Below are positions 1-29,916 of a DNA stretch of 32,000 bases, piece after piece (position 1 is the stretch's first letter; each line of letters begins with the position of its first letter). The notes beneath the pieces are model-generated. The model did not search any database, was not told the DNA's origin, and saw nothing but the letters and a program-made list of their open reading frames with translations. Where the stretch lies: NCBI GenBank assembly GCA_043808785.1, contig JAZDEL010000001.1, positions 182,455 through 214,454 of the forward strand, given 5' to 3'. Origin of the DNA: Candidatus Iainarchaeum sp. GTDB taxonomy: Archaea; Iainarchaeota; Iainarchaeia; Iainarchaeales; JAZDEL01. The position numbers and the translations under genes were made by a program.

Positions 1-242
1 GTGTGCCCAAGCCTTCTGCACTCCTCGCAAACTGCGAAAGTCACGCGGTATTTTCCCGCCCTTTTTTTCCTCTTTCCCCTGAACTGCCCCGCAAGAAAAG
101 GGCTGTTATAAAACGGGTTTTCGATAACGCCGTCGACGAGATGTTTTATTCTTTCCTGCACGGCCTTTTCCAGCTTGCCAAAGTTTTTCTGGAAGACGGA
201 TGTGAACCGCGCCTCGTAATTAGCCCCCGAAGACCCTTGCAT
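1..242 (-). CDS. RelE/ParE-family toxin-like protein (partial; 3' end cut by the window edge)
   Basis: I hand-translated the minus strand from the ATG (complement of 240-242). It reads MQGSSGANYEARFTSVFQKNFGKLEKAVQERIKHLVDGVIENPFYNSPFLAGQFRGKRKKRAGKYRVTFAVCEECRRLGH and stays open to position 1. The pattern (KL..., ENP, L.G...G, R.G.YR...) resembles RelE/ParE toxins. It is missing from the ORF track because no stop codon lies inside the window. It overlaps the upstream ORF by 23 nt. Confidence 0.5.
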   Translation of the reverse strand, partial: MQGSSGANYEARFTSVFQKNFGKLEKAVQERIKHLVDGVIENPFYNSPFLAGQFRGKRKKRAGKYRVTFAVCEECRRLGH

Positions 243-885
243 ATGTCAGCGCCCTCTCCCCTTTGGCTTTGGCAGCAGCGGCTTTGAGGGATTCGCATTC
301 CTCGGCGTTCAGGTAAGTCATCAGGGTCTCAAGCCAGCCCTCGTCTATTTTAAAAATTTTCTTCGCGTTTTCCTCGGGCAGGTTAATCAGGAGCGGGGTT
401 TTTTCGGGCATTTCTCCGATAGGCAGGTCGCCGGCAGGGGTTTTTATGGTCATTGCATAGATTTCTTTTTTCAGTTCCGCCAAGTTGCGGCCGGATTCGG
501 CACGGACAACTTTCGCAATCCTTGCCATGATTTCCTTGTTATCCTCAAATACAGGCGCCATTTCCCTGAGTATTGCGTTCCCTTTGGCGGTAAGCCTGGC
601 GTTTGAAGTTATGAGCCCCTCCTCCACCAGGCCCTGGTAGTCCTCGAAGCCGAGTTCAAATGAGAACGGGCCGTAGTGGTAGCGCACAAAGGGATAGCTG
701 AACGCCTTTATCCTCTCTTTTTGCAGGCTGTGCTCTGCCTTGAATATGATTTTCACAAGCTTTGTGATGCCTTCCGCCCTTCCGTGCCTGTTCGCTTCGC
801 TAATCGAATAGAGCAAAAGCAGGTTGTCTATAGCCTTCTCCCTCGCGCTTCTGGAAGCCATTAAACCGCCCATATAGTGTTTCAA
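220..885 (-). CDS. Hypothetical protein, possible DUF4065 (SocA/GepA 'Panacea') antitoxin-like domain
   Basis: This is a 221-aa ORF. The segment ITKLVKIIFKAEH...FVRYHYGPFSFELGFEDYQGLVEEGLI resembles the KL.KLLY...YGP...L...G.I core of DUF4065. It sits directly upstream of, and overlaps, a RelE-like ORF, which is the usual antitoxin position. Confidence 0.4.
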   Translation of the reverse strand: MKHYMGGLMASRSAREKAIDNLLLLYSISEANRHGRAEGITKLVKIIFKAEHSLQKERIKAFSYPFVRYHYGPFSFELGFEDYQGLVEEGLITSNARLTAKGNAILREMAPVFEDNKEIMARIAKVVRAESGRNLAELKKEIYAMTIKTPAGDLPIGEMPEKTPLLINLPEENAKKIFKIDEGWLETLMTYLNAEECESLKAAAAKAKGERALTYARVFGG

Positions 886-888
886 CTT

Positions 889-1656
889 CTATAAAATATT
901 ATCCCTGCCGCCCCGTTTATAAATGGCTATGAGGGTGGGTTTCCAGTGCGGCGGCCCGCGCCGCGGTTTGTCGGGCAAGCAAAGCCGTTCGCAGCTGCGC
1001 GCGAGCGCACTACTTGCCTTTTTTCCCCCTTTTTCTACAAATATCCCCCTGACTGCATCATATTCATACCCTGGCATCGGAGTCGTTTTCTCGGTAAAAT
1101 ATCCCTTCTCAATCAAACTGCGGACAAAGTTGCGATATTTGGAATAGCGGGCAATTGAAGACTTCTCCTGCCCAATCTTAGTGTGCAAATGCCTCAAGGT
1201 GGCGCGCAACTTTGATGCTTCTTTCATCGGCATATCAATCAATTTTTTTTGTGCCTTGAGGTGGTAATACCCAATAACCTTCCCATAAGGGTTAATAGTC
1301 GCAATATGCCAGACGTTTATCTTTTTGCGCCTGCTCCAGGCATCTCCGACGAATGCCCTTAAATCACCGATGGAAGGTAAAGAGGAAGTGGCGATGCCGC
1401 GAAGTTCCGGCGCTAGAGCGTCCAAAACTGCCTCAGGGTGCGTATGAATATGCGATTTCTCGGTGCCTTTTTTAAACGACCTAATCCCAAACCATGGCAT
1501 TCGAAAAAGAATTCCACGGCGCATTTTGCCCGCAGTTCCCTTGTCTTTGAAGTAGGACATTTCCATAAAGTCTATGAATCGCGTTTCTTCTATCCTCTGT
1601 TTGGCGGTTTTATAGCCTGATGGCAGTCCTTTTGTCTTGCTTGCCTTTATCATCAC
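889..1656 (-). CDS. Hypothetical protein with a JAB/MPN (JAMM)-like HxH...S..D signature
   Basis: This is a 255-aa ORF. The track start is GTG at 1656; an ATG at 1653 is more likely. The motif HIHTHPE-x20-LPSIGD resembles the JAMM HxHx7Sx2D motif but with a longer spacer. A TATA-like element (complement of 1673-1683) lies about 20 nt upstream of the ATG. The stop is 3 nt before the start of the next gene. Confidence 0.45.
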   Translation of the reverse strand: MMIKASKTKGLPSGYKTAKQRIEETRFIDFMEMSYFKDKGTAGKMRRGILFRMPWFGIRSFKKGTEKSHIHTHPEAVLDALAPELRGIATSSLPSIGDLRAFVGDAWSRRKKINVWHIATINPYGKVIGYYHLKAQKKLIDMPMKEASKLRATLRHLHTKIGQEKSSIARYSKYRNFVRSLIEKGYFTEKTTPMPGYEYDAVRGIFVEKGGKKASSALARSCERLCLPDKPRRGPPHWKPTLIAIYKRGGRDNIL

Positions 1657-1698
1657 TATACATTGGGGATCGAAATATAAAAAGATTCCGCAGCGCTT

Positions 1699-1822
1699 CC
1701 CCGCGAACCCCCTCCCCTGAAAACCTTGTCATCCCCAGCCATTACCACCTCCCATTCGGGTTTTTTCTTACGCCTCGGCGTTTTCGGCTTTAAGCCTTTC
1801 CCCCTGATGGGGTCGGTGCGCC
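1699..1822. repeat. Intergenic repeat copy R1 (about 120 nt), paired with 4402-4518
   Basis: A 36-nt core, agccattaccacctcccattcgggttttttcttacg (1737-1772), is identical to 4433-4468. The flanks are similar out to about 1822 and about 4518. The left arm ccccgcgaaccc (1699-1710) is also shared. On the plus strand there is a hairpin plus T6 (cccattcggg-tttttt, 1751-1766). On the minus strand the same core reads GGGAGGTGGTAATGG, which is SD-like followed by an ATG. Confidence 0.85.
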
Positions 1823-1858
1823 TAAAGGCATTGTTCGGGCACAAACCGCCCCGATTTT

Positions 1859-2932
1859 TTACCTGCCGCCTTGGTTTCCGCGCACAGGCACGGAGCGGAC
1901 GTTCGGGAACTCGCGCAGGTCGCGAAGGACGCCTTCAACAATTTTTCGGTTGTTGGCACATGCATAAACAACATTCTGTGCCAGTTTTTTTTCGACAAAC
2001 TGCTTGTCAACTTCAAACTCTTCTGCAGTTTTTTTAGATATTTCTTTAAAAATCTCGCTTTTTTTCTTTTCGTCCAGCCAGCCGTGGGGCGTAATTCTAA
2101 GCCCTTCCTGCAAAATATTTGCGAGCCTCTTCCGCCCATATTCCCCCAATATTTTGGTAAAATCCTTGTATGGCATTTCAGAACCGTGGTCCAACCTAAG
2201 CTGTCGCGCAAAACGCTCTGTCGTGCTTTTTCCGCTGAGAAAATCAAAAGCGTGCCTTAAACGATTAAAATCCTCCCCTGCCCTATCGTATTTTTGCAGT
2301 TCATTAAACAATTCGTGGCTTACGCCATATTGCACGAATACCCTATCTTTGAACTTACCTCCCCCTTGCACACGCATCACAGGGCGCCAGCGTTTTAGTG
2401 ACTCGTGGCTTAATGGAATGTACTCTGAAATGCTTCCGACCTTTCCCGGATGTTGTGCATTGGTGGCGCCAGCAATTTCCTTCCCTTGTTGCCAATCTTT
2501 ATCACCGATTTTGACAAAAAGACCGTGGAACACCTGCACATTTGGCGGAGTTGCCTTACTGTTCTTGAGGGCTGTGTGCTGTAGGCTGAAATAGCAAAGC
2601 CTTTTCGGGTTTTTTATATCATAGAAAGTTATGTTTGTTAAGTTTCCCTTTGGCAGCTTTAACTCCGGGTGTCCGTATGCTTCCCTGAATTTCCCCCAGT
2701 ATTCCTTTGAGCGCGCGGGAATTCCGCCGCGCCTGATGCTCGGCAGCAGGAACTTTTTCACGAACTCGCTCGGCGTGGTGTGCTTCTTCATTGCCGCAAG
2801 AACCATTCTTGACATCTGCGCACCTGTTAGAATAACGGCCCCGAAGTTTAAATATTTGCCCCCTGAAGCCCCCGCGAACCCTCGCCCGCATGCCCCTGCG
2901 CCCCCATCACCTCCCCCGAAGAATTTTTTCAT
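1859..2932 (-). CDS. Hypothetical protein (no recognisable domain); the true start is probably the ATG at 2815
   Basis: This is a 357-aa track ORF. Its first 39 codons are Gly/Ala low-complexity sequence and contain a 27-nt segment identical to intergenic repeat R2. The internal ATG at 2815 is preceded by AGGTG (5-nt spacer) and by a TATA-like element (complement of 2846-2857). Confidence 0.6.
   Translation of the reverse strand: MKKFFGGGDGGAGACGRGFAGASGGKYLNFGAVILTGAQMSRMVLAAMKKHTTPSEFVKKFLLPSIRRGGIPARSKEYWGKFREAYGHPELKLPKGNLTNITFYDIKNPKRLCYFSLQHTALKNSKATPPNVQVFHGLFVKIGDKDWQQGKEIAGATNAQHPGKVGSISEYIPLSHESLKRWRPVMRVQGGGKFKDRVFVQYGVSHELFNELQKYDRAGEDFNRLRHAFDFLSGKSTTERFARQLRLDHGSEMPYKDFTKILGEYGRKRLANILQEGLRITPHGWLDEKKKSEIFKEISKKTAEEFEVDKQFVEKKLAQNVVYACANNRKIVEGVLRDLREFPNVRSVPVRGNQGGR
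2868..2894. repeat. 27-nt exact copy of the left arm of repeat R2
   Basis: The sequence gcccccgcgaaccctcgcccgcatgcc at 2868-2894 is identical to 4402-4428. Confidence 0.9.
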
Positions 2933-2959
2933 ATAGGGGGTTTTCCCGCCAAATGCAAT

Positions 2960-3373
2960 TTAATGCGCGGGAATGCCCATCTCCCGCAGCTGCTTTTTAA
3001 TAAGCTTCTTGGCAGCATCCGTAATCTCCTTCCTCGGCCCGAGTGCAGCAATATCGTATTGGCTGTTCATCTGGCTGGCTGCATTCTTTATTGCGTTTGC
3101 CCCGCCCACCTTGAGGCTTTTGAAGTGCGCATGCAATATCTGCGAGGCGGCGTTGCGGGGAATTCCCAACTGGAAGAGAACATAACCGTGATTCCTTATT
3201 TCTATGCCCGCCCTATTTGCCAGGCCGCAAAGGTTCCGCATGATGTTTTGTTTTTTCTTTTTTTTAAAGAACCTTTTTATTGCACCATTGCGCCTGACGG
3301 GCTTCGGCCTTTGTTTTCTCCTAAGAGGGCCCATGCCCCCGAAGGGGTCCATACCGCTGCGGAACTTCGGCAC
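2960..3373 (-). CDS. Hypothetical, very basic small protein
   Basis: This is a 137-aa ORF with a GTG start in the track and an alternative ATG at 3352. The N-terminal third is Lys/Arg-rich (RRKQRPKPVRRNGAIKRFFKKKKKQ). A TATA-like element (complement of 3405-3412) lies about 31 nt upstream of the GTG. Confidence 0.5.
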   Translation of the reverse strand: MPKFRSGMDPFGGMGPLRRKQRPKPVRRNGAIKRFFKKKKKQNIMRNLCGLANRAGIEIRNHGYVLFQLGIPRNAASQILHAHFKSLKVGGANAIKNAASQMNSQYDIAALGPRKEITDAAKKLIKKQLREMGIPAH

Positions 3374-3525
3374 AAAAACACCATACAGAATGTGCTCTCC
3401 ATGCTTAAATAATTTTGCCCCTGCCCTCGTCGCCCCACTGCGCTTCGATTACCCTCTCCTCGCCCATCGGAAATATACCCCCCGCGAAACCTCCCGCGCG
3501 CACTGCCGCCCCCCCCAATAATTCC

Positions 3526-4302
3526 CTACCTGCCGTTTCGCCCAACTATCAGATGGATGTTGTTGTTCGGCTCCTTGCTGTCTGTTCGCACAGCCCTGCT
3601 CTCAACGGCCTTTGCCCCGAACCTTTCCATGAGCGCGGCAATTTCAGCAGGTTTTGGCGGGCGCGTACGGTATTCCGGGCGATAAACAATAACTATCCCG
3701 CCGCCCGGTTTCAGCCTTGAAAACATGTGGCCGAGGGCCTTTTCTGCATCTTTCACATGGTGAAACGACTCGTTGGAAATTATCAGGTCAACCGATTTTT
3801 CTTTCAGGGGGGATTCCTCGAATGTGCCGGGCACAACGGAAACTTTTTTGCGCCCCCTGGGCCCCAGTATGTTGAGCGCAACCCTCGGCACCTGTTTCGC
3901 CATCTCGCGAAGGGGCTCTACGCCGATAATTTTGCCGATATTCGGAAACTCCTTGGCAAGGAAGCATTCGTGGTGCAGGTTTCCCGCGCCGTAACTTGCG
4001 ACCGTCGCCCCCTTTGGCAGGTTTAATCTGGAAACGCCCTCAACAAGAGCCCTATGGTCAATTATATTGTCTTCCGAACTGTAAATTTTGCCGTACTTCC
4101 TCGCCATGTAGCGGAATCTTTTTCCTTCGTCCTTTCCAGCCTCTGACAGCCGCCTCAGCTTTTCCCTGCTTTTCGGATTAAGCCCGTGGTAAAAGTTGGC
4201 ATATTCATCAAAGGTCATTCTCCAGCTCGGCTTGAACCAGAGCGCAAATTGCCCCAATCTGCCTGGTTTCTGCCCGATTTTTGCCCGCGGATTTCTGCCC
4301 AT
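3526..4302 (-). CDS. Class I SAM-dependent methyltransferase-like protein
   Basis: This is a 258-aa ORF. VASYGAGNLHHE...IIGVEP...VDLIISNESFHHV...LKPGGGIVIV follows the order of methyltransferase motifs I, II and post-II, although motif I is atypical. Confidence 0.6.
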   Translation of the reverse strand: MGRNPRAKIGQKPGRLGQFALWFKPSWRMTFDEYANFYHGLNPKSREKLRRLSEAGKDEGKRFRYMARKYGKIYSSEDNIIDHRALVEGVSRLNLPKGATVASYGAGNLHHECFLAKEFPNIGKIIGVEPLREMAKQVPRVALNILGPRGRKKVSVVPGTFEESPLKEKSVDLIISNESFHHVKDAEKALGHMFSRLKPGGGIVIVYRPEYRTRPPKPAEIAALMERFGAKAVESRAVRTDSKEPNNNIHLIVGRNGR

Positions 4303-4401
4303 AACGCCACATCAGGCTATGCTGCCAATGCAATAAACGGCAATTCAAAATATAAATATTTCATTTTCTGAAACACAGGCGCCTCGGCTGAATTTAATTG
4401 T

Positions 4402-4518
4402 GCCCCCGCGAACCCTCGCCCGCATGCCTAACAGCCATTACCACCTCCCATTCGGGTTTTTTCTTACGACTCGGCGCTTCTCGGCTTAAGCATTTCCCCC
4501 GCTTGGGGTCGGCTCCGC
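4402..4518. repeat. Intergenic repeat copy R2, paired with 1699-1822
   Basis: See R1 for the shared features. The core is at 4433-4468, the plus-strand hairpin plus T6 is at 4447-4462, and the left arm with the box ccccgcgaaccc is at 4404-4415. Confidence 0.85.
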
Positions 4519-4600
4519 TGCACGCCAATTACAGCCGTTCCCGGCAAATGCTCGCCAACAGAACGGGCGCGGAAACTTATTCAAGCCGTTTTTGAACCGC

Positions 4601-5242
4601 TCAAAGCCGTACACTCTTGTTTCCGTGAATTTTCTGGTGTGCTTTATTCCACAGCAGCCACAGCAGGAGATGGGGGGCTTCGGGCGGGGCATCGCTCTGC
4701 TGCAATTTCTCAATCCACCTTTCGGCTGCCGCCTGGGAGCTTACATATGCTTCACCTGCCGTATTCCCCTTCAGCAGCGATTTGACCGCCTGATTTGACA
4801 CGTCCAGGCACGGTTTCGCAAATTCATCCCGCAGAGGGGTTGCGCTCTTCTGGGGATTAATGGGAAAGCCGAACAAATCGCAGTATCCTATGAAAGCAGC
4901 TGCTCCCGACTGCACGCAGTCCCTCCCGAGTTTTGCCGCGGAACTGCACGAGCGGCAGTAAATAACTTTGTCCTTAAGCAGCCGTTCATTTTGCCCGCTC
5001 TTTATCAGGACTTCATTCCTGTGCCCCGCGACCCAATCCTCGCCGCCGTGGCCGTTGAACATTGCCAGTTTCGGGTTTTTTCTGCCGAGAAATTTGCCAA
5101 CCTCCGCGGCGCTTGCCCTTTCCCTCCTGAACTCAAAAACAGCAAGCCCCTTCTGCTTAGCCAGCTCTATAAGTTCGCCAGCCCATGCCGAAAGGTATGC
5201 GGTAGTGTCGTCGTGTTCGGGCAGGGTAATAAAGAATTCCAC
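4601..5242 (-). CDS. Hypothetical protein with a caspase-fold (clan CD)-like His-Gly...Cys signature
   Basis: This is a 213-aa ORF. FNGHGGEDW is followed 31-34 residues later by VIYCRSCSSA. That order and spacing resemble the catalytic dyad of gingipain, legumain and caspase-like peptidases. The call rests on the motif only. Confidence 0.35.
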   Translation of the reverse strand: MEFFITLPEHDDTTAYLSAWAGELIELAKQKGLAVFEFRRERASAAEVGKFLGRKNPKLAMFNGHGGEDWVAGHRNEVLIKSGQNERLLKDKVIYCRSCSSAAKLGRDCVQSGAAAFIGYCDLFGFPINPQKSATPLRDEFAKPCLDVSNQAVKSLLKGNTAGEAYVSSQAAAERWIEKLQQSDAPPEAPHLLLWLLWNKAHQKIHGNKSVRL

Positions 5243-5252
5243 AAAATCGCCC

Positions 5253-5459
5253 CTATTTTGAGAATGAGCGCAGATAGCTTAATTGTATTTCTATTATTTT
5301 TTCCCCAATCTTGCTGCCCTGCCTTACTTCCCCGATAAGTTCTTCTTTGCTGAAGACCCCCATGCTGCCCAGCGAAATTTTCATTGTCGGCGGCATGGTT
5401 TCCAGCCTGGCAATGACCAGTTTTTTTATTTCATCCTTACTTATTGCCATTGCCGCCAC
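5253..5459 (-). CDS. Small hypothetical protein (paralog of 5437-5640)
   Basis: This is a 68-aa ORF. KEELIGEVRQGSKIGEKIIEIQLSYL aligns with VAYREIRGGTALGAKILNKLEALKI of the upstream ORF. The two ORFs overlap by 23 nt. Confidence 0.5.
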   Translation of the reverse strand: MAAMAISKDEIKKLVIARLETMPPTMKISLGSMGVFSKEELIGEVRQGSKIGEKIIEIQLSYLRSFSK

Positions 5460-5640
5460 CTATGATTTTCAGCGCCTCAAGTTTATTCAGTATTTTTGCC
5501 CCCAGCGCAGTCCCGCCCCTTATCTCCCGGTATGCCACATTCCACGTGATGGGCTCGTCATCCACAACCAAAACTATCTCTTTTCTCACATTCAAAGGGA
5601 GGTCGGCATATATCTGCATAAATCTTTCTGCAGCGCCCAT
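5437..5640 (-). CDS. Small hypothetical protein (paralog of 5253-5459)
   Basis: This is a 67-aa ORF. See the paralog entry. A TATA-like GTTTAAATAC lies on the minus strand upstream, at about 5685-5695. Confidence 0.5.
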   Translation of the reverse strand: MGAAERFMQIYADLPLNVRKEIVLVVDDEPITWNVAYREIRGGTALGAKILNKLEALKIIGGGNGNK

Positions 5641-10550: not shown

Positions 10551-10568
10551 TCAGGGCGCCTCCGAAAG

Positions 10569-10642
10569 TGGGCGTAGGAGGATTTGAACCCCCGACACTT
10601 GGTGTATAAGACCAATGCTCTGCCAGGCTGAGCTATACGCCC
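10569..10642 (-). tRNA. tRNA-Ile, anticodon UAU
   Basis: The reverse complement reads GGGCGTA-TA-GCTC-AGCCTGGCA-GAGC-A-TTGGT-CTTATAC-ACCAA-GTGTC-GGGGG-TTCAAAT-CCTCC-TACGCCC-A. It has a perfect 7-bp acceptor stem, a 4-bp D stem, a 5-bp anticodon stem and a 5-bp T stem (one G-U pair). The anticodon loop is CT-TAT-AC, the discriminator is A73, and no CCA is encoded. The 3' end lies 18 nt from the ileS ATG. Confidence 0.9.
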
Positions 10643-13255: not shown

Positions 13256-13282
13256 TTACATATCCCCCATGTCTCCGCCCAT
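13256..13282. repeat. 27-nt exact duplicate of the thermosome 3' end (downstream copy)
   Basis: The sequence ttacatatcccccatgtctccgcccat is identical to 13415-13441. On the minus strand it encodes MGGDMGDM-stop. Confidence 0.95.
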
Positions 13283-13390: not shown

Positions 13391-13417
13391 GCAAAACTGC
13401 CCTGCTGGCGGCAGTTA
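13391..13417 (-). terminator. Hairpin plus T4 immediately after the thermosome stop
   Basis: The minus strand reads TAA-CTGCC-GCCAGCAG-GGCAG-TTTT. Confidence 0.4.
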
Positions 13418-15067
13418 CATATCCCCCATGTCTCCGCCCATTCCGCCCATGCCTCCGGGCGGCATCCTGGGCCCCGAACTCTTGCTCCCGCCCGCTATGA
13501 TATCGTCGATGCGCAGCAGCATCTCCGCGACTTCTGAACCCGAGGTTATCGCCTGCGTCTTTATGCTCAGCGGCTCTATAACCTTCGCCTCCTTCATGTT
13601 GGAGAACTTCGCATTGTAGACATCGACGCCTATATACTTGCCTTCCTTGCCGGTGTGCTTGTTCCTGAGGCCGACAAGCGTGTCTATCGGGTCCATTCCC
13701 GCGGTTTCCGCGAGCGTGCGGGGAATTACCTCGAGGGTTTCGGCGAACGCCTCTATCGCAAGCTGCTCCCTTCCGCCGAACTTCTTCGCGTATTCCCTGA
13801 GTTTCATCGCGACCTCTATCTCCGAGCTTCCGCCGCCACTGACAATCTTGCCGTCCCTTACCGCCGAGGAGGTTGCGCCTATTGCGTCGTGCACCGCCCT
13901 CTCCGCCTCATCAACAACGTGCTCCGAGCCTCCGCGCACAAGCAGCGAAACAGACTTGGGGTTTGTGCACCCTTCCACAAACACCATTTCGTCGCCCGCA
14001 ATCTTCTTCTCCCTTACAACCGCGGCTTTTCCGAGGTCGGATTCCGAAAGGTCCGCAATCCTGCTCACTACCTTTCCGCCCGTGGCTCTTGCAAGCGCGT
14101 CCATGTCGCTCTTCTTCACGCGCCTTACCGCAACTATCTTTTCCTTCGCAAGGAAGTGCTGTGCCAAATCATCTATCCCTTTCTGTGTTATCAGCACATT
14201 TGCCCCCGAGGCCTTTACCTTTTCAACCATGTCCCTGAGCATCTTCTCTTCCTGGTCTATGAATGCCTGCATCTGGTCGGGAGATGTTATCTCAATCTTC
14301 GCGTCGGTTTCCGTGTCCTTTATCTCGAGCGCGGCGTCAAGCAGTGCAATCTTCGCGCCCTTCACGTTTCTGGGCATTCCCGCGTGCACTATTTCCTTGT
14401 CTATCACGATTCCCTTGACAAGTTCGCTGTCCGCTATGCTTGCTCCAACCTTCTTCTCGACCTTTATATTATCCATATTAATTACTGTCTTGCCGTCTTC
14501 CTTGTCCGCAACCGTCTGTATCGCGTCGACAACCAAATCGGCAAGCTCCCCCGCGCTTTCCGCGCTCTTGCCCGTCATCGAGGTCATTGCAATGTCGCGC
14601 AGCGCCTTCCTGTCGTCGAATGTGATGTCGTCGGAAATTTCCCTGTAGAACTCCTTTGCCTTTTTTGCCGCCTCCCTGTAGCCCTTGATTATTATGCTCG
14701 GGTGTATGTCGTCGTCAAGCAGCCTTTCCGCCTTGTGCAGGAGCTCGCCCGCGATTATGACCGCGGTCGTTGTCCCGTCCCCTACCTCGTCGTCCTGCGT
14801 TTTCGCGACCTCGACCATCATTTTTCCCGCGGGATGGTCGATGCTCATCTCGCCGAGGATTGTCGCGCCGTCGTTGCTTATTGTCACATCCCCGAGCTCG
14901 TCAACAATCATCTTGTCCATTCCCTTCGGTCCAAGCGTGCTCTTCACAGCCTGCGCCACAGCGCGCGCTATGAGTATGTTAATCCTCTGGGCATCCCTGC
15001 CCCTTACCCTTTTGGAACCTTCCGTGAGAAATACCACCGGCTGGTTCATCTGCTGTTCTCCGCCCAT
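13415..15067 (-). CDS. ths: Thermosome subunit (group II chaperonin)
   Basis: The protein reads [41 protein letters not shown] and VGDGTTT, and ends in a [13 protein letters not shown] tail. I chose the ATG at 15067 (GGAGGTG 7 nt upstream) over the track start at 15133. Confidence 0.93.
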
Positions 15068-15136
15068 GTTAAAACACCTCCAAGTGTGAATTTGGCTTAA
15101 CCTTAAATCTGAAAAAACAAACAACAAACCCAAACA

Positions 15137-15239
15137 CGAACCCGAAACGGGTTCGTTGGTTTTTGGTTATTTTTGGGGTTTTCCGGTTTTTTGTTTTTTG
15201 CGTTTTTTCGGGTTTTTTTGCGGGTTTTCAGGGCTTTTT
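15137..15239. promoter_or_regulatory. Perfect 8-bp palindrome plus nine phased T-tracts in the divergent region upstream of the thermosome
   Basis: The palindrome cgaacccg-aaa-cgggttcg lies at 15137-15155. T-tracts of 4-7 nt start at 15160, 15170, 15179, 15187, 15194, 15203, 15213, 15225 and 15235, a spacing of 7-12 nt. Confidence 0.5.
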
Positions 15240-15333
15240 AGCCCTTCCCCGCACTAACCCTGCCATACAATCTTGATGGATATAGGGTTTAAAAACCTTC
15301 CCGCATTTTTGCTGGATGTGGGCGGGATAAGCC

Positions 15334-16320
15334 GTGCCCGCAGGCAGGGCGCATTCTTTTTTAATGTCCTGTGAACGCATATTTCGTATGAATAAGAAAA
15401 CTGCCGAAATAGCAAAGCGCATTATGAGCGACGATTTTTTAGATGATTTTGAAAAAAGTTATTTGGCAAAAAAGGAAGAGATGGAACGCTTGTGTTGTGC
15501 TGAAACATTTGATTTGGTTGATAAATTCCAACTTCAGGGAACGGATGAGATCTTCATAGAATCTGATATAATGGCTGACCTTAATCGCCCCCACTTTAGC
15601 AGAGGGCAGCCTATCCGGAAAATAGTGAATAACGGGGTGGTGATATCTAAATTTTTAAATTGCCTGAGGCACACTAAAGCGCTCAAAAATGTTGTTGAGG
15701 GGCCAGTGAATTATTCGATGACTTTTTATGGCAATGGTCTGGAAATATTCAACTTACGGATAAATACTCAGCCTATTGGCAGATTTATTCGGTTTTCCGA
15801 AAATCTTGGGCGGGTTCCTCCCGCGAATTTTTATGTTTTGTTGAAGGAAATCTTGGAGAGTAATAAGTGGGATGCGAAGGATAATTTGGCATTTTCCATA
15901 TACGCCGATAAGCGCAGGTACTCATTGGGCGAGCGTATAACGCTTAAGGCAACCTTAAAAAATATCGGGACTCAACCCGCTTTAATCCACCATTTTCTTT
16001 GTTTAACGGGAAGGTCTTGGGGCGAGTGGGGCGGTGGCGTATGCCCTAAAATAATGGATCCTGCGGATAATCTTTTGAGATATGATTCGAGTATGATTTT
16101 TATGGAATCCTCATGGCCTTTTGGGGCGGAGTGGTTTCTAACCTTAAAACCTGGGGCGGGTTTTGCCGGCAACATATATGACCCTCGCGATGGAACATTA
16201 TGCATTAAAGAAAAAGGAGTGTATAAAATTCAGTGTTATTATCTTAGCCATGTGGATGCTAAAGCCAGCATTTGGAGAGGCACAGTTCTGTCTAATGTGA
16301 TTCAGATAAACATTGTCTGA
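15334..16320 (+). CDS. Hypothetical protein, AT-rich orphan; start uncertain (GTG 15334, ATG 15364 or ATG 15388)
   Basis: This is a 328-aa track ORF with no signal peptide. The C-terminal third (RITLKATLKNIGTQPA...LKPG...GVYKI...W.G.V.SN.I.I) looks like a beta-sandwich. Two 60-nt lines I counted by hand gave about 28-38% GC, against about 58% for one line in the thermosome gene. Confidence 0.6.
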   Translation: MPAGRAHSFLMSCERIFRMNKKTAEIAKRIMSDDFLDDFEKSYLAKKEEMERLCCAETFDLVDKFQLQGTDEIFIESDIMADLNRPHFSRGQPIRKIVNNGVVISKFLNCLRHTKALKNVVEGPVNYSMTFYGNGLEIFNLRINTQPIGRFIRFSENLGRVPPANFYVLLKEILESNKWDAKDNLAFSIYADKRRYSLGERITLKATLKNIGTQPALIHHFLCLTGRSWGEWGGGVCPKIMDPADNLLRYDSSMIFMESSWPFGAEWFLTLKPGAGFAGNIYDPRDGTLCIKEKGVYKIQCYYLSHVDAKASIWRGTVLSNVIQINIV

Positions 16321-16344
16321 GAACTGTGCCAGTCAGGTTGCTGT

Positions 16345-16447
16345 TTGTTTGAAGGCGTGTCAACTTCCCTTTTTGCCCTTCACAGCGCCCTTATACAGCG
16401 CCTCGGTTTCATTCGCAATCTTCCCGATAGTGAACCCGCGCGCCGAA
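16345..16447 (-). pseudogene. Relic 3' fragment of a GT4 glycosyltransferase gene
   Basis: The minus-strand translation ARGFTIGKIANETEALYKGAVKGKKGS-stop matches the C-terminal region ARAFTIEKIAKETEALYKGALRRG of the intact GT at about 17450-17520. It has no upstream coding continuation and lies just after the stop of Fic gene 1. Confidence 0.7.
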
Positions 16448-16465
16448 TTTTTATTTGCGCGCGCC

Positions 16466-17365
16466 CTAATCCCCTTCAAAATATTTCTCCATCACATACC
16501 TTACAAACGGCCTTTCCTTGCGCTCTATCTGGTATTTGTCGAGGGCGTTGTAATAATTCTCTATATCCTCTATCTTTATGTCAATCATGGGGTAGCCTTT
16601 CTTCCACAAAATCCAGTTCATAAGCAGCCTTGAAACCCTGCTGTTCCCGTCCGTAAAGGGCTGGATGGAGTTTATTTTCAGGTGCGTAAGCGCGGCAAGT
16701 TCCAGCGGGTGCAGCCTCCTGCTGTTTGCCCCGTACCATTTAAAGAATTCCGCAATCTCCTTATCAAGCACGTTCCATTTGGGCGGGACATAGGGCGTGC
16801 CCGCAATCTTCACGTCCCTTTTGAGCCCGCTCCGAAATTTTCCCGTGATTGCATCATCCACACCCGCGAAAAGTATTTTATGCAGTTTTTTCAGGAACCC
16901 CATGCCCAGCCTGCCCCTGAATTTCGTTATAGCCACAACTCCCTTTTCGTGGTTCTCCACTTCCTTCACTGTGCGGAGGCTCCTGAAACCTTTCGGCACT
17001 ATGCCGTCCTTGAGTATGAGCGAGGTCTGCCTCAGGGTTACATTAACACCCGAGAGCTTGCTGCTGTCATAGGTAAACCTTATCATGAACTGCCCGAGGC
17101 GCCTGCTTTTCTCCAAAGGGCTGAGCGATTTCAGCTCCTTTGCATTGCGTTCCTTTATTTCCGCTATGCGTGCCGCTTCCTCCGCCGAGAAGTACCTGTA
17201 CCTGCCTTCCTCGGTCTCCCTGATGAATTCTTCCTTCAGCCGTTCCAGCCTCGCTTTTGGCGGCAGGGTTTTGCCTATGTATCGCGATTCTTTCACTACC
17301 TTTTTCCCTTTCCTTACGGAACGGACGAGGACATAGTAGCCGTTAATCTTCCTTATGAAAACCAT
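16466..17365 (-). CDS. Fic-domain protein with a degenerate active site (Q replaces the catalytic H)
   Basis: This is a 299-aa ORF. The Fic motif reads QPFTDGNSRVSR instead of HPFx[DE]GNGRxxR; I checked the CAG codon on the DNA. The inhibitory-helix motif reads SSKLSG instead of SxxxEG. A TATA element (complement of 17389-17396) lies 23 nt upstream of the ATG and overlaps the GT stop codon. Confidence 0.85.
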   Translation of the reverse strand: MVFIRKINGYYVLVRSVRKGKKVVKESRYIGKTLPPKARLERLKEEFIRETEEGRYRYFSAEEAARIAEIKERNAKELKSLSPLEKSRRLGQFMIRFTYDSSKLSGVNVTLRQTSLILKDGIVPKGFRSLRTVKEVENHEKGVVAITKFRGRLGMGFLKKLHKILFAGVDDAITGKFRSGLKRDVKIAGTPYVPPKWNVLDKEIAEFFKWYGANSRRLHPLELAALTHLKINSIQPFTDGNSRVSRLLMNWILWKKGYPMIDIKIEDIENYYNALDKYQIERKERPFVRYVMEKYFEGD

Positions 17366-17391: not shown

Positions 17392-18699
17392 TTAAACGTT
17401 TCGTTTATGCACCACATTTGCGCCGTGCCCTTCCTCAGCCCTATTTCCCCTTCGCAGCGCCCCTTTGTACAGCGCCTCCGTCTCCTTCGCAATCTTTTCG
17501 ATTGTGAACGCGCGCGCGGTTTTCAACGCGGCTTTCCCCATTTTTTCCCTCAGCGCCTCTGAGTGGATTAATTTTTCCATCTTGTCAGCAAGCTCCGCAT
17601 GGTCGAACGGCTTGAAAAGGAACCCGTTCACCCCGTCCTTTATTGAATCAGGAATTGCAAGGCAGTCCGCCCCGATGCAGGGTAAGCCTGTTGCCATCGA
17701 TTCCATGATAGTTAACCCTTGTGTCTCGATTGTAGATGCAGTTACAAAAAAATCATGCCCCGCAACATGCTTCGCAAGCGCGTCGCTCTTCATCGGCGCG
17801 TTGAAAACAACATTCTTCCCCAAACCCTCCGCATGCGCGGTTTTTTTTATTTTCTCGAGCGCAGGCCCCGAGCCCGTGATTGTTAATTCCGCATCGACAC
17901 CGCGCGCCCGCAGCTCCCTCAGCGCGAAAAGCAGGAACTCTATGTTCTTCTCATAACCTATCCTGCCGAAGTAAATCATTTTCGCCTTTCCCGTGCGCGA
18001 AAGCGCGTATTTTTTCTTCGCGAATTTGTTGGTCCGCCCCTTGCGCGCGAGCGCGTATTTTTTCTTCGCGAATTTGTTGAACCTTTTGAAATCAATCGCG
18101 TTCGCCAGCACGCGCACATGTTTAATGCCCTTTTTTTCCAGCTCGCGCTTCATTGTGTTGCTGGGCACGGTTACAATATCGCACTTGTTGTAGAACCTCC
18201 TCACGTACGCCCATGCAAGGTGCTTTGCAGGTGCGGTTTTCCTGATGAGCGGCAGGGGGAGATACATAAGGAACTCGGGAATGTGCGTGTGGTACGTGCC
18301 AATCACGGGCACCCTGTGCCTTTTCCCGTATCTCCTGCCCAGCACCCCTATCCCGAAAGGGGTTTGCACATGCACAACTTCGGGCTTGAATTTTTTGAGT
18401 TCGCTGTTCAGCCTTCCCGAACGCAAATCAGTAATCCTGTAATCTTTGTAGGTAGGCAATGCAATTGAGGGTAAGCAAACAACCGTTGTTCCTCCAGCAC
18501 TCCCGCCCCCGCGCTTCCCCTTGCTGCGGGGCGCGGTTGCGCGCTTCTCCTCCTTCACCTCGAACTTCAGCCCTGTTGCAGGGGCGACAATAAGTATCTC
18601 ATTCCCCATTTCCGCGAGCGCCGTGGCTGTATTTTCAATCTGCGTAACCACGCCGTTTATCTGGGGCTTGTAAGTGTCCGTGAATAGCGCAATTTTCAT
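17392..18699 (-). CDS. GT4-family (GT-B fold) glycosyltransferase
   Basis: The N-terminus is MKIALFTDTYKPQINGV and the C-terminus has an E-x7-E region (ETQGLTIMESMATGLPCI). I chose the ATG at 18699 over the TTG at 18735. The gene contains an in-frame 48-nt tandem duplication. Confidence 0.85.
   Translation of the reverse strand: MKIALFTDTYKPQINGVVTQIENTATALAEMGNEILIVAPATGLKFEVKEEKRATAPRSKGKRGGGSAGGTTVVCLPSIALPTYKDYRITDLRSGRLNSELKKFKPEVVHVQTPFGIGVLGRRYGKRHRVPVIGTYHTHIPEFLMYLPLPLIRKTAPAKHLAWAYVRRFYNKCDIVTVPSNTMKRELEKKGIKHVRVLANAIDFKRFNKFAKKKYALARKGRTNKFAKKKYALSRTGKAKMIYFGRIGYEKNIEFLLFALRELRARGVDAELTITGSGPALEKIKKTAHAEGLGKNVVFNAPMKSDALAKHVAGHDFFVTASTIETQGLTIMESMATGLPCIGADCLAIPDSIKDGVNGFLFKPFDHAELADKMEKLIHSEALREKMGKAALKTARAFTIEKIAKETEALYKGALRRGNRAEEGHGANVVHKRNV
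18003..18079. repeat. In-frame 48-nt tandem duplication inside the GT4 gene
   Basis: The sequence gcgcgtattttttcttcgcgaatttgttg occurs at 18003-18031 and again at 18051-18079. The protein therefore reads NKFAKKKYALARKGRT / NKFAKKKYALSRTGKA. Confidence 0.9.
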
Positions 18700-22647: not shown

Positions 22648-22774
22648 TCAGGGGCGTGCATCAGATGCAATTTCCGAAAACCAGCGTAGTCAGAGTTTAA
22701 ATACCCTCGGCGCAACTAATATATATACCAATTACATAATGAATTAAAGAAAGAATAAAAGAAATCGGGAAGGC

Positions 22775-23347
22775 GTGCGCATGGTTTCGGGGAAGGTTCT
22801 GCTGGGGGCGGGGGTTGTTGTTGTGCTCGCTGTTGCGGCATATTTCCTGCTCGTGCCTTCGGAAAAGGCGGAACTGGAAAAACTCAACGCAATCCTCGCG
22901 AAATACGGGGTTGATTTCCCGGATAATTTTTCCTATGCTGCGCTTGCGGCGTTGCCCGCCTCCACGCGCTCCACAATGAAGTCGGAACTGCAGGATTTTG
23001 CGGCTGGTGGCGCTATTTTCAAAAAGCCTGAAAGCGTTGTGAAATCCGCCAATTTCATGGTTGCATTTATTGATGTCGTGAACTCTGCGGAACTGACCGA
23101 CAAAAAGAATGCCGAAATTCTTGCCGGTTTTTCAAAGCCGCCCTGCGACAGCCTGGGCACAATAAGCGAGCGTAACGAACTTGAAGCGATGACAATTTCG
23201 CTTCTTGCCCAATTGCAGGATGAGGCGAGGGAACTTTCAAGCGATAAGGATGTGACTCTGAGCCAGCAACTGATTGACCAGCTAACTGCCGACCACGAGC
23301 AGCATGTCAGGGCATTTAACGATTTGAAAGGGGGTTGTGTGCAATGA
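22775..23347 (+). CDS. Membrane-anchored hypothetical protein (first gene of the exported trio)
   Basis: This is a 190-aa ORF starting at GTG 22775 or ATG 22781. It has one N-terminal hydrophobic helix (VLLGAGVVVVLAVAAYFLLV). Its stop overlaps the ATG of the next gene (ATGA at 23344-23347). Confidence 0.65.
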   Translation: MRMVSGKVLLGAGVVVVLAVAAYFLLVPSEKAELEKLNAILAKYGVDFPDNFSYAALAALPASTRSTMKSELQDFAAGGAIFKKPESVVKSANFMVAFIDVVNSAELTDKKNAEILAGFSKPPCDSLGTISERNELEAMTISLLAQLQDEARELSSDKDVTLSQQLIDQLTADHEQHVRAFNDLKGGCVQ

Positions 23348-25443: not shown

Positions 25444-25453
25444 TGGCGGTCTT

Positions 25454-29731: not shown

Positions 29732-29916
29732 GTGTTCACCTCGCTTAAAAAACGTAGTTAATGGCTAAAAAAGCCGTATATTATTATTCCACCGTCGGTT
29801 TTTAATGCCTTGCTGTGAAGAAATTGCGCAGGGGTTATGTATAATTTACCCTGCAACAGGTGCCACTCCATTGCCAATAGCCTTAAATATGCCCCGAGTG
29901 TTAATATTTGCTAATT

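What the first reader, a model, noticed from the sequence alone, without database searches (positions are those of the whole stretch)
889..5640. Accessory island of unrecognisable proteins with two protease-like signatures, which may be an uncharacterised stress or defence module
Ten co-directional genes sit here:
- two small paralogs;
- a caspase-fold-like protein;
- a methyltransferase;
- a basic 137-aa protein;
- a 357-aa unknown protein;
- a JAB-like protein;
- a Panacea-like protein;
- a RelE-like protein.

They sit next to a housekeeping block and are linked by shared repeats and a shared upstream box. A metalloprotease-like protein and a Cys-protease-like protein next to a toxin-antitoxin pair resemble the make-up of known defence islands. 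I recognise no described system with this composition.
Basis: inference. Interest (0 to 1): 0.65.

Follow-up and report, generated by a model that had tools for sequence, protein, structure and literature searches.

The report
Mini-caspase cassette beside unrelated orphan genes
The proposed "defence island" is not one system, but it contains a tightly conserved, undescribed three-gene cassette (two small proteins plus a 213-residue caspase-like protease) found almost only in ultra-small DPANN archaea and CPR bacteria, next to unrelated lineage-specific genes and an ordinary RelE-type toxin-antitoxin pair.

Summary
The genes exist, all on the minus strand, but the island is not an evolutionary unit. 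Only small A (5437-5640), small B (5253-5459) and p213 (4601-5242) travel together.

- **Linkage:** A-B-p213 occurs in that order in 85 of 85 loci fetched through p213. Starting from A instead, 69 of 72 metagenome loci with room carry p213. No other island gene appears in the 85 loci.
- **Protease:** the p213 model (pLDDT 98) matches SAVED-CHAT, gingipain, caspase-4/11, C11 and separase. His65, Cys99 and Asp139 are invariant. The "caspase-fold-like" call is confirmed.
- **Small proteins:** A and B match no described family. The B model (pLDDT 92) has no significant structural match.
- **Distribution:** hosts are DPANN archaea and genuine CPR bacteria. Flanking genes are varied and mostly housekeeping. 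No relative occurs in viral contigs.
- **Other genes:**
  - p255 ("JAB-like") is an orphan with only a non-canonical motif.
  - p357 really starts at M40 and belongs to a rare family seen in unrelated contexts.
  - The methyltransferase is a generic class I enzyme.
  - p221 and RelE form an ordinary toxin-antitoxin pair outside the stated coordinates.
- **Shared box:** real, but it links only four genes and not the cassette.

The cassette's function is inferred, most likely a protease switch controlled by the small proteins.

The parts
5437..5640 (-). Small protein A (67 aa), first gene of the conserved cassette. Its C-terminal GGGNGNK tail is specific to this genome.
   Evidence: A tblastn homologue lies directly upstream of p213 in 85 of 85 loci. 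F7, R19 and W33 are invariant. No Pfam, NCBIfam, PADLOC or PDB sequence match. There are 177 relatives in JGI metagenome contigs.
5253..5459 (-). Small protein B (65-68 aa; the ATG at 5450 is the likely start), second gene of the cassette.
   Evidence: tblastn hits in 74 of 85 loci. In 9 of the other 11 loci (two more lack a called stop) an ORF of 65-95 aa fills the gap. The family has 206 members, all 65-118 aa. The AF2 model has pLDDT 92 and is helix, beta-hairpin, two helices. No significant PDB fold match. Weak OmpR-type winged-helix signal.
4601..5242 (-). p213, a minimal stand-alone clan CD (CHAT/caspase-like) cysteine peptidase and third gene of the cassette.
   Evidence: AF2 pLDDT 98. 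Foldseek matches SAVED-CHAT 8tl0 (E 6e-7), gingipain, caspase-4/11, C11, Craspase CHAT, GPI8 and separase. His65 and Cys99 each follow a beta strand. C99, Y120 and D139 are invariant in 77 of 77 sequences.
4402..4512 (-). Intergenic repeat copy B with the G-rich box (4404-4414), upstream of the methyltransferase and its TATA-like element.
   Evidence: It shares 27 identical nt with copy C and 81 nt at 86% identity with copy A. It is not more structured than shuffled sequence.
3526..4302 (-). p258, a generic class I SAM-dependent methyltransferase.
   Evidence: Methyltransf_11 at E 8e-12, above the curated cut-off. Best NCBIfam matches are ArsM, BioC and UbiE-type, all far below their cut-offs. 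The PADLOC mad2 match covers only the methyltransferase domain, positions 257-443 of 492. Absent from all p213 loci.
3478..3525 (-). Degenerate copy D of the box (GTTTCGCGGGG at 3480-3490), upstream of p137.
2960..3373 (-). p137, a very basic 137-aa protein (pI 11.6) of unknown function.
   Evidence: Only sub-threshold family matches. The annotated frame scores best for coding.
2816..2932 (-). Promoter region mis-read as the N-terminus of the 357-aa ORF. It holds repeat copy C (2868-2915), the box (2870-2880) and a TATA-like element.
   Evidence: Homologues begin at M40. The homologue in L086 has a similarly placed TTTAAAC element upstream of its ATG.
1859..2815 (-). p318 (the true extent of the 357-aa ORF), a member of a rare uncharacterised family.
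   Evidence: 24 relatives among 1.84 billion representative proteins. The aligned relatives share the N-terminus MSxTxLxAMxKHKTPxEFVxKFLLP. No Pfam or PDB match. Homologue contexts are unrelated. GC3 is 0.52, against 0.65-0.70 in housekeeping genes.
1699..1816 (-). Intergenic repeat copy A with the box (1699-1709), upstream of p255.
   Evidence: Folding z-scores are +0.86 and +1.3.
889..1656 (-). p255, an orphan protein (254 aa from the ATG at 1653) with an HxHxH...SxxD motif.
   Evidence: Only a self hit among 5.8 billion proteins. No family or PDB match. Motif spacing is non-canonical and arises by chance in 0.7-0.9% of shuffles.
220..885 (-). p221, the candidate antitoxin partner of RelE, with a winged-helix or DUF4065-like N-terminal half.
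   Evidence: PADLOC PDC-M19A at E 2e-6 and a region of a type I specificity subunit at 8e-6. tblastn E 1e-3 to a DUF4065-annotated Haloarcula plasmid gene, and to PadR/HTH regulators. No Pfam Panacea hit. Its end overlaps the RelE start by 23 nt.
3..242 (-). RelE/ParE-like toxin gene, cut off by the window edge.
   Evidence: PHROG 1213 'RelE-like toxin' at E 8.9e-7, covering residues 8-72. No Pfam hit on the fragment.

Best explanation
The region is a composite of three unrelated parts, not one system.

**(1) A-B-p213 cassette (4601-5640).** This is an autonomous three-gene operon. It encodes two about 65-aa proteins that are probably distant paralogues. Each is built from a helix, a beta-hairpin and two further helices (modelled for B only). 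The third gene encodes a minimal 213-aa clan CD (CHAT/caspase-like) cysteine protease with an intact His65-Cys99 dyad. The cassette is inherited and exchanged as a unit among DPANN archaea and CPR bacteria.

- Inferred mechanism: A and B form a partner complex, probably a heterodimer (family median pI about 5.7 for A and 8.0 for B). This complex holds, targets or is cleaved by the protease.
- The cassette would then act as a self-contained proteolytic switch of the toxin-antitoxin or conflict-module type.
- The invariant Asp139 suggests a preference for cleaving after a basic residue.

**(2) Four lineage-specific genes (889-4302).** These are the methyltransferase, p137, p318 and p255. Each appears, from the sequence, to have its own TATA-like promoter. 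They share a duplicated G-rich upstream box, GAGGGTTCGCGGGG. This most likely reflects recent promoter-region duplication and possibly co-regulation.

**(3) p221 plus RelE (3-885).** This is an ordinary type II toxin-antitoxin pair.

**Shown:** the gene linkage, the protease fold, the conserved dyad, the distribution, and the lack of co-conservation of the rest.
**Inferred:** the interaction of A and B with the protease, the switch function, and the role of the box.
For: **Linkage**
- A-B-p213 is present in order, with gaps or overlaps of a few nt, in 85 of 85 loci.
- In the reciprocal search from A, 69 of 80 loci have p213. Eight are cut by a contig end. Three lack a detectable p213, and one of them keeps a truncated p213 remnant.
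- No other gene family occurs in more than 5 of 79 loci.
- No Pfam or PADLOC family occurs in more than 2 of 131 flanking ORFs.

**Fold and active site:**

**Cross-domain distribution:** bacterial release factor RF1 and bacterial-type RpoB flank the cassette in CPR contigs.

**Island not conserved:**

**Box and repeats:**

**Atypical composition of p255 and p318:**

**Toxin-antitoxin pair:**
Against: - No experiment or complex model links A or B physically to p213.
- B has no significant structural neighbour, so the role of the small proteins is open.
- A is at least as conserved as the protease. For example, it is 60% against 40% identical in L028. This is unusual for an antitoxin.
- Flanking genes are mostly housekeeping and are not enriched for defence genes.
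- The invariance of FNGHG in the genome set is partly imposed by the search pattern.
- The taxonomic labels come from metagenome-assembled genomes, and a few are clearly doubtful.
- The role of the box is untested, and its spacing to the TATA element varies.
Confidence: 0.6

Rival explanations
1. One reading: the whole stretch, from the small proteins through RelE, is one co-functional defence or stress island whose proteases, methyltransferase and toxin-antitoxin pair act together.
For: - The genes are adjacent and co-directional.
- Four of them share an upstream box.
- A toxin-antitoxin pair is present.
- No known system matches.
Against: - None of the other genes accompanies the cassette in 85 loci.
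- p255 is an orphan.
- p318 homologues sit beside fumarase, peptidase M42 or flavodoxin genes.
- The box does not extend to the cassette or to the toxin-antitoxin pair.
- The "JAB" protease is unsupported.
Confidence: 0.06
2. The A-B-p213 cassette is a housekeeping or symbiosis-related maturation system. The mini-caspase would process or ligate specific cell proteins, or A and B themselves, as part of the episymbiotic lifestyle shared by DPANN and CPR. It would not be a conflict or toxin-antitoxin-like module.
For: - Neighbours are mostly housekeeping genes such as tRNA synthetases, ribosomal proteins, SRP54 and Clp.
- A is strongly conserved across domains.
- Clan CD includes processing enzymes and transamidases such as GPI8 and separase, which are among the fold matches.
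- Distribution is restricted to the two ultra-small radiations.
Against: - Distribution is sporadic. Only 105 of 185,579 species genomes matched the search pattern.
- The position in the genome varies.
- Decayed copies exist.
- One genome carries two copies, on contigs of CAYYPF01 (L018 and L031).
- These features suit an accessory element better than a core function.
Confidence: 0.22
3. A and B are small helix-turn-helix DNA-binding regulators and p213 cleaves one of them. This would make a protease-controlled transcription switch, comparable to ImmR/ImmA or to Craspase-Csx30-sigma factor.
For: - B family members weakly match OmpR-type Trans_reg_C: 3 of 31 members, best E 0.0035.
- B also weakly matches response-regulator DNA-binding domains in the PDB, E 0.07.
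- Weak Foldseek hits include the Z-alpha, TEAD and ScpB winged helices.
- One source names a B homologue a FixJ-family regulator.
Against: - All these matches are below significance.
- A is mildly acidic, with median pI 5.7.
- No conserved operator or clear excess of inverted repeats lies upstream of A across 77 loci.
- The top Foldseek hit is prefoldin beta, not an HTH protein.
Confidence: 0.12
4. Genes 889-4302 are an integron-like or other mobile cassette array, and the repeats are recombination sites or a structured RNA.
For: - The genes are co-directional orphan-type genes separated by repeated elements, next to a toxin-antitoxin pair.
- GC3 is low in p255 and p318.
Against: - The repeats do not fold better than shuffled sequence on either strand: z +0.86, +1.3, -0.2 and +1.0.
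- There is no Rfam match at gathering score.
- Each gene has its own TATA-like element.
- No integrase was seen in the ORF lists of the window.
- No copy of the repeat core was found in 241 million metagenome records.
Confidence: 0.04

Closest known systems
CHAT-domain proteases of prokaryotic immune systems (SAVED-CHAT of type III CRISPR/CBASS, PDB 8tl0; TPR-CHAT 'Craspase', PDB 7y84 and 8d9h)
   Same: These are the best structural matches to p213, with E 6e-7 and query-normalised TM-score 0.55-0.61. They share the caspase-hemoglobinase fold and a His-Gly...Cys dyad placed after consecutive strands. In Craspase the protease acts on a small partner protein encoded next to it (from my knowledge of the published Craspase-Csx30 work).
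   Different: - p213 is a bare 213-aa catalytic domain with no SAVED, TPR or other sensor domain.
- No CRISPR or CBASS genes were seen next to it in the neighbourhood surveys.
- Pfam CHAT is not matched significantly: 2 of 31 members at E 0.086.
- The partners are two conserved 65-aa proteins that matched no Pfam, NCBIfam, PADLOC or PHROG family.
Gingipain R / peptidase C25, clostripain-like C11, and caspases, metacaspases and orthocaspases (C14)
   Same: Fold matches with query-normalised TM-score 0.57-0.65 to RgpB and E 4e-4 to caspase-4. Weak Peptidase_C25 and C13 profile hits occur in a few family members. The invariant Asp139 could parallel the acidic S1 pocket of the Arg/Lys-specific members (inference).
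   Different: - There is no p20/p10 architecture, pro-domain, signal peptide or Ig-like domain.
- p213 is much smaller than these enzymes.
- No significant sequence-profile membership in any of these families.
Type II toxin-antitoxin modules, including three-gene variants
   Same: The cassette is small, autonomous and tightly packed, with short upstream genes. It is sporadic, independent of genomic context, shared across domains, sometimes multi-copy and sometimes decayed.
   Different: - I know of no described toxin-antitoxin family with a caspase-fold toxin and these partners, and PADLOC finds none.
- Small protein A is more conserved than the enzyme.
- The cassette is absent from viral contigs.
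RelE/ParE toxin with a Panacea (DUF4065)-type antitoxin, for p221 and the gene at 3-242 only
   Same: PHROG RelE-like hit at E 9e-7. The two genes overlap, with the partner upstream. p221 resembles a DUF4065-annotated gene at E 1e-3.
   Different: - The Pfam Panacea model is not matched.
- The toxin gene is truncated by the window edge.
- This pair is unrelated to the rest of the region.

Membership tests
Clan CD (caspase-hemoglobinase fold) cysteine peptidases: p213 | Alpha/beta fold with a central six-stranded sheet shared by caspases, gingipains, legumain, C11, separase and CHAT | tested here: met
   The AF2 model has pLDDT 98. The top 18 Foldseek PDB hits are all clan CD enzymes, with best E 6e-7 and query-normalised TM-score up to 0.65.
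Clan CD (caspase-hemoglobinase fold) cysteine peptidases: p213 | Catalytic His (usually His-Gly) after one strand and catalytic Cys after the next main strand, both conserved | tested here: met
   G64-H65-G66 follows strand 59-63 and C99 follows strand 93-97. H65 is invariant in 31 of 31 sequences and C99 in 30 of 31 in the pattern-free set. C99 is invariant in 77 of 77 in the genome set.
Clan CD (caspase-hemoglobinase fold) cysteine peptidases: p213 | Peptidase activity | not testable with these tools
   Needs enzymology with H65A and C99A controls.
CHAT domain (Pfam PF12770): p213 | Significant match to the family profile | tested here: not met
   No hit for the window protein. Only 2 of 31 homologues match, at E 0.086.
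Caspase, metacaspase or orthocaspase (C14): p213 | Peptidase_C14 profile match and p20/p10 organisation | tested here: not met
   No Peptidase_C14 hit. p213 is a single compact 213-aa domain.
JAB/JAMM metallopeptidase: p255 | E...HxHx(7-10)SxxD motif with canonical spacing, and a profile or structural match to the MPN fold | tested here: not met
   - The gap between the HxH and SxxD motifs is about 20 residues, and the canonical 6-10 pattern finds no match.
- The loose motif arises in 0.7-0.9% of shuffles.
- No JAB, Prok-JAB or RadC hit at E up to 1.
- No JAMM protein in the PDB search at E up to 10.
- No homologues exist to test conservation.
Panacea / DUF4065 antitoxin domain: p221 | Match to the DUF4065 profile | tested here: inconclusive
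   - No Pfam hit at E up to 1.
- tblastn E 1e-3 to a DUF4065-annotated Haloarcula plasmid gene, and similar scores to PadR/HTH genes.
- PADLOC PDC-M19A at E 2e-6.
RelE/ParE toxin: gene at 3-242 | Profile match and an adjacent small partner gene | tested here: met
   PHROG 1213 at E 8.9e-7 over 65 of the 80 residues available. It overlaps p221 by 23 nt. The Pfam scan of the truncated fragment found nothing, so membership rests on one library.
Class I SAM-dependent methyltransferase: p258 | Methyltransf_11/23/25-type Rossmann domain above the curated cut-off | tested here: met
   Methyltransf_11 scores 46 bits against a cut-off of 21.2, E 8e-12.
MADS defence system (mad2): p258 | Full-length match to mad2 and presence of the other MADS genes | tested here: not met
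   The match covers only profile positions 257-443 of 492, which is the methyltransferase domain. No other island protein matched a mads model in PADLOC.
Any PADLOC-catalogued defence system: whole region | Significant matches to the set of genes that defines a system | tested here: not met
   A, B, p213, p255, p137 and RelE give no hits at E up to 1. The others give only domain-level or weak hits.
Integron gene-cassette array: 889-4600 | attC-like imperfect hairpin repeats between promoterless cassettes, and an integrase nearby | tested here: not met
   The repeats fold no better than shuffled sequence. The genes have their own TATA-like elements. No integrase was seen in the window's ORF lists.
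OmpR/PhoB-type winged helix: small protein B | Significant profile or fold match to Trans_reg_C | tested here: inconclusive
   3 of 31 members match, best E 0.0035. PDB response regulators match at E 0.07. Foldseek finds nothing below E 0.4.

The most novel reading that the evidence does not exclude
A-B-p213 is a previously undescribed, horizontally exchanged proteolytic module specific to the two ultra-small episymbiotic radiations, DPANN archaea and CPR bacteria. It would be the smallest stand-alone caspase/CHAT-type protease known, with two dedicated small-protein partners. It would act as a minimal programmed growth-arrest, anti-virus or host-interaction switch. It would also offer a view of what a sensor-less, ancestral-like caspase module looks like.
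Probability: 0.25. Interest if true: 0.8.

Novelty: new variant of a known kind. Interest (0 to 1): 0.55.

Why it matters
- Caspase-fold proteases are central to immunity and cell death from bacteria to animals. In prokaryotes they are usually fused to, or paired with, large sensor domains.
- Here the catalytic domain stands alone. It is always paired with two conserved 65-aa proteins that belong to no described family. It is found almost only in DPANN archaea and CPR bacteria.
[quoted passage not shown] This cassette supplies three such families at once, in one operon.
- That makes it a marker of gene exchange between the two radiations.
- It is also a compact three-gene system that can be tested directly in E. 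coli.
- For the scan itself, the lesson is that adjacency plus shared repeats did not indicate a functional island here.

Tried and rejected
- **Ubiquitin-like tag.** The GG-containing C-terminal tail of small protein A might have marked a ubiquitin-like modifier. Rejected: the tail is unique to this genome, and orthologues end at ...LKII.
- **Viral origin.** No relatives of p318, p255 or the p213 family occur in IMG/VR. BFVD gives only distant caspase/C11-like folds.
- **Structured RNA or attC-like site in the repeats.**
  - Rfam gives nothing at gathering score, only spurious sub-threshold hits.
  - Two-sequence alifold is uninformative.
  - DNA folding is no better than shuffled sequence.
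- **Short upstream ORFs inside the repeats.** A Shine-Dalgarno-like GGAGGTG plus ATG is present, but coding scores for two of the three copies are not positive. I treat them as non-coding, and they remain unexplained.
- **More copies of the repeat.** A scan of metagenome contigs for the 20-nt repeat core found none.
- **Conserved operator upstream of A.** No shared k-mer was found beyond AT-rich promoter words, and the excess of inverted repeats is only marginal.
- **Other copies or paralogy.** There are no paralogues among the island proteins and no second copy in the window.
- **PDB sequence searches.** Searches for p255, p221 and the p318, A and B families gave nothing significant.
- **Exact-sequence look-up.** The look-up of the window's own p213 found no record.
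- **Technical failure.** A first attempt to search metagenomes with the 31-sequence A alignment failed because no stretch was conserved enough. It worked with 12 sequences.

Full report
**1. What is in the sequence**

The long ORFs between 1 and about 15 kb lie on the minus strand. In transcription order the region reads as follows.

| Gene | Coordinates | Note |
|---|---|---|
| small A | 5437-5640 | 67 aa |
| small B | 5253-5459 | 65-68 aa |
| p213 | 4601-5242 | |
| intergenic spacer | 4303-4600 | 298 nt, non-coding |
| methyltransferase p258 | 3526-4302 | |
| p137 | 2960-3373 | |
| "357-aa" ORF | 1859-2932 | |
| p255 | 889-1656 | |
| p221 | 220-885 | |
| RelE-like gene | 3-242 | runs off the window edge |

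- Upstream of small A lie a membrane protein, deoxyhypusine synthase (E 4e-104), a 992-aa ORF I read as isoleucyl-tRNA synthetase (not searched), and tRNA-Ile.
- Every island ORF scores best in its annotated frame under a codon model trained on the window's long ORFs.
- p255 and p318 have low GC3, 0.52-0.53 against 0.65-0.70 for the housekeeping genes.
- The last two genes, p221 and RelE, fall outside the stated coordinates.

**2. Repeats and the shared box**

- An 81-nt repeat at 1736-1816 and 4432-4512 is 86% identical.
- A 48-nt family has copies at 2868, 3478 and 4402.
- The core GGTTCGCGGGG occurs on the minus strand at 1699, 2870, 3480 (one mismatch) and 4404.
- A fifth, one-mismatch match lies inside p213. 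None occurs in the other 26 kb. That is five matches against 0.96 expected.
- Each intergenic copy lies a variable distance upstream of an AT-rich TATA-like element that precedes a gene start.
- The copy at 2870 lies inside the annotated N-terminus of the 357-aa ORF.
- The 20 aligned homologues of that ORF all begin at its Met40, with the conserved start MSxTxLxAMxKHKTPxEFVxKFLLP.
- The gene is therefore p318 (1859-2815), and the "N-terminus" is promoter DNA.
- The box links four genes only: p255, p318, p137 and the methyltransferase. It does not link the A-B-p213 operon or the toxin-antitoxin pair.
- The repeats are not more foldable than shuffled sequence on either strand.
- They have no Rfam match at gathering score.
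- Their core was not found in 241 million metagenome records.
- I read them as recently duplicated promoter-proximal DNA and a possible common operator. This is an inference.

**3. The caspase-like protein**

- p213 has 64 homologues of about 213 aa with no Pfam annotation. The named ones come from DPANN archaea or CPR bacteria.
- In an alignment of 31 sequences, G64-H65-G66, G119-Y120 and D139 are invariant. C99 is present in 30 of 31.
- The AlphaFold model is very confident, with pLDDT 98 and pTM 0.93.
- Its best PDB matches are all clan CD peptidases:
  - SAVED-CHAT (E 6e-7)
  - gingipain R (query-normalised TM-score up to 0.65)
  - caspase-4 and caspase-11
  - C11 peptidases
  - Craspase TPR-CHAT
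  - GPI8
  - separase
- His65 and Cys99 each follow a beta strand, as in that clan.
- A few family members give weak Peptidase_C25, CHAT or C13 profile hits.
- p213 is not a significant member of any existing profile family.
- It is a bare catalytic domain without a sensor or pro-domain.

**4. Gene-neighbourhood test**

*Search from p213*
- The first three contexts already showed two small genes directly upstream of each p213 homologue and nothing else shared.
- A scan of 185,579 species genomes found 105 with a relative, and 79 loci were kept.
- By record title, 53 are DPANN: Micr-, Iain-, Woese-, Pace-, Nano- and Aenigmatarchaeota.
- Another 26 are labelled bacterial, nearly all CPR: Saccharibacteria, Roizman-, Levyi-, Kuenen-, Woese- and Shapirobacteria, and Parcubacteria.
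- The CPR contigs are genuinely bacterial. Release factor RF1 and a bacterial-type RpoB flank the cassette.
- Across all 85 loci held, tblastn finds small A in 85 and small B in 74. In 9 of the remaining 11 an ORF of 65-95 aa fills the gap, and in two no complete ORF could be called.
- Order and tight spacing are constant.
- None of RelE, p221, p255, p357, p137, the methyltransferase, the membrane protein or deoxyhypusine synthase occurs in any of these loci.
- No other gene family occurs in more than 5 of 79 loci.
- Among 131 immediately flanking ORFs, no Pfam or PADLOC family occurs more than twice.
- Most flanking ORFs are housekeeping genes. There is an occasional Fic, AbiEi, integrase or reverse transcriptase.

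*Reciprocal search from small A*
- The search of JGI metagenomes found 177 loci.
- Of the 80 kept, 69 have p213 downstream and 8 end too soon.
- The other 3 lack a detectable p213. One keeps a truncated p213 remnant.

*Other observations*
- No relative occurs in 2.9 million viral contigs.
- A rough neighbour-joining tree shows CPR and DPANN clades partly interleaved.
- This fits inter-domain transfer, although some bin labels are doubtful.

**5. The small proteins**

- A and B are distinct families with no match in Pfam, NCBIfam, PADLOC or PDB sequences.
- Their profiles align only locally, around E-I-x3-T-x2-G-x-K-I-L, with E 4e-4 and probability 34%. Paralogy is plausible but not proven.
- The B model (pLDDT 92) is helix, beta-hairpin, helix, helix.
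- It has no significant PDB neighbour. The best hit is prefoldin beta at E 0.45.
- Weak OmpR-type winged-helix signals exist but stay below significance.
- A is mildly acidic and B is basic, with median pI 5.7 and 8.0.
- The GG-containing tail of this genome's A is not conserved, so a ubiquitin-like reading is rejected.

**6. The other island genes**

- **p255.** It has no homologue among 5.8 billion proteins and no family or PDB match.
  - Its HIHTHP...SIGD motif leaves about 20 residues between the two parts, where JAMM enzymes have 7-10.
  - A motif that loose appears in 0.7-0.9% of shuffles of the same protein.
  - The JAB idea is therefore unsupported, though not excluded, because no structure could be modelled.
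- **p318.** It belongs to a rare family, with 24 relatives among 1.84 billion representatives. It has no Pfam or PDB match, and homologue contexts are unrelated.
- **Methyltransferase.** It is a generic Methyltransf_11 enzyme. Its PADLOC mad2 hit covers only the methyltransferase domain.
- **p221.** It shows weak winged-helix or DUF4065-like similarity. Its end overlaps the start of a RelE-like gene (PHROG 1213, E 9e-7). This is an ordinary type II toxin-antitoxin arrangement.

**7. Interpretation**

The island is a juxtaposition of three parts:
- a mobile-looking three-gene protease cassette;
- four lineage-specific genes with duplicated promoter regions;
- a toxin-antitoxin pair.

For the cassette I commit to a protease switch controlled by the small proteins, at roughly 0.3-0.4 for that mechanistic step. 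The reasons for:
- obligate linkage of the three genes;
- sporadic, context-free and cross-domain distribution;
- occasional decay and duplication.

The reasons for caution:
- high conservation of A;
- housekeeping neighbours;
- no interaction evidence.

The main rival is a symbiosis-related or housekeeping processing role.

**8. Novelty**

- Three literature searches found no paper that combines caspase, CHAT or orthocaspase terms with DPANN or CPR in a relevant way.
- A protein-family survey of DPANN noted that only a few families of unknown function are also detected in bacteria (PMC8204110).
- The protease fold is known.
- The family, its minimal architecture, its two partner families and its restriction to CPR and DPANN appear undescribed in the libraries and papers I could search.

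Noticed in passing
window 10568-10642 (-): A tRNA-Ile with anticodon TAT (UAU) lies just upstream of the 992-aa ORF I read as isoleucyl-tRNA synthetase (Rfam 67.8 bits; ARAGORN). A UAU isoleucine tRNA is an uncommon way to decode AUA in archaea and may be worth a look.
   Followed up: no
window 30522-31443 (+), inside the ORF 29908-31839: Several families of 64-88-nt direct repeats with periods near 69-72 and 138 nt lie inside a 643-aa ORF. This suggests a repeat-rich, possibly surface, protein.
   Followed up: no
window 15000-16500 and 22500-25500: Two stretches have clearly lower GC (0.42-0.47) and reversed GC skew. They coincide with plus-strand ORFs in an otherwise minus-strand region and may be foreign or differently oriented gene blocks.
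   Followed up: no
window 13256-13282 and 13415-13441; 17990-18031 and 18038-18079; 16385-16443 and 17459-17517: Three further repeat pairs: an exact 27-nt direct repeat 159 nt apart, a 42-nt near-tandem repeat (93%), and a 59-nt repeat (83%) 1 kb apart. None is related to the island repeats.
   Followed up: no
window 1657-1745, 4387-4431 and 2846-2905 (-): Each of three repeat copies contains GGAGGTG, a short spacer and an ATG. Each ATG opens a short ORF of 14-28 codons that encodes G-(E/G)-G-S-R-G. In the copy upstream of p255, the short ORF's stop codon overlaps the GTG start of p255 (TAGTG). Coding scores for the two copies scored are not positive, and the significance is unexplained.
   Followed up: partly
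L094 3435-3623; L129 2878-3225; L147 1435-1614: Decayed cassettes in metagenome contigs. A and B are intact in L094 and L147, while B carries a foreign C-terminus in L129. In L094 p213 is reduced to a 62-aa C-terminal remnant. In L129 and L147 p213 is missing or replaced.
   Followed up: yes
L018 and L031 (both from assembly CAYYPF01, Micrarchaeota): One metagenome-assembled genome carries two copies of the A-B-p213 cassette on different contigs.
   Followed up: no
L048, L049, L059 (labelled Methanosarcinales), L051 (Gammaproteobacteria), L076 (Chloroflexi): A few cassette-bearing contigs carry non-DPANN, non-CPR labels. Their p213 sequences cluster with Nanoarchaeota, Taylorbacteria or Iainarchaeum sequences. 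This points to mis-binning or mislabelling rather than a wider host range.
   Followed up: partly
L001 2752-10143: In the closest named relative (Candidatus Ainarchaeum sp., 62% identity for p213), the cassette is followed by a 2463-aa protein with only faint or weak Pfam hints of Ig-like/CarboxypepD_reg domains, instead of the window's methyltransferase.
   Followed up: no
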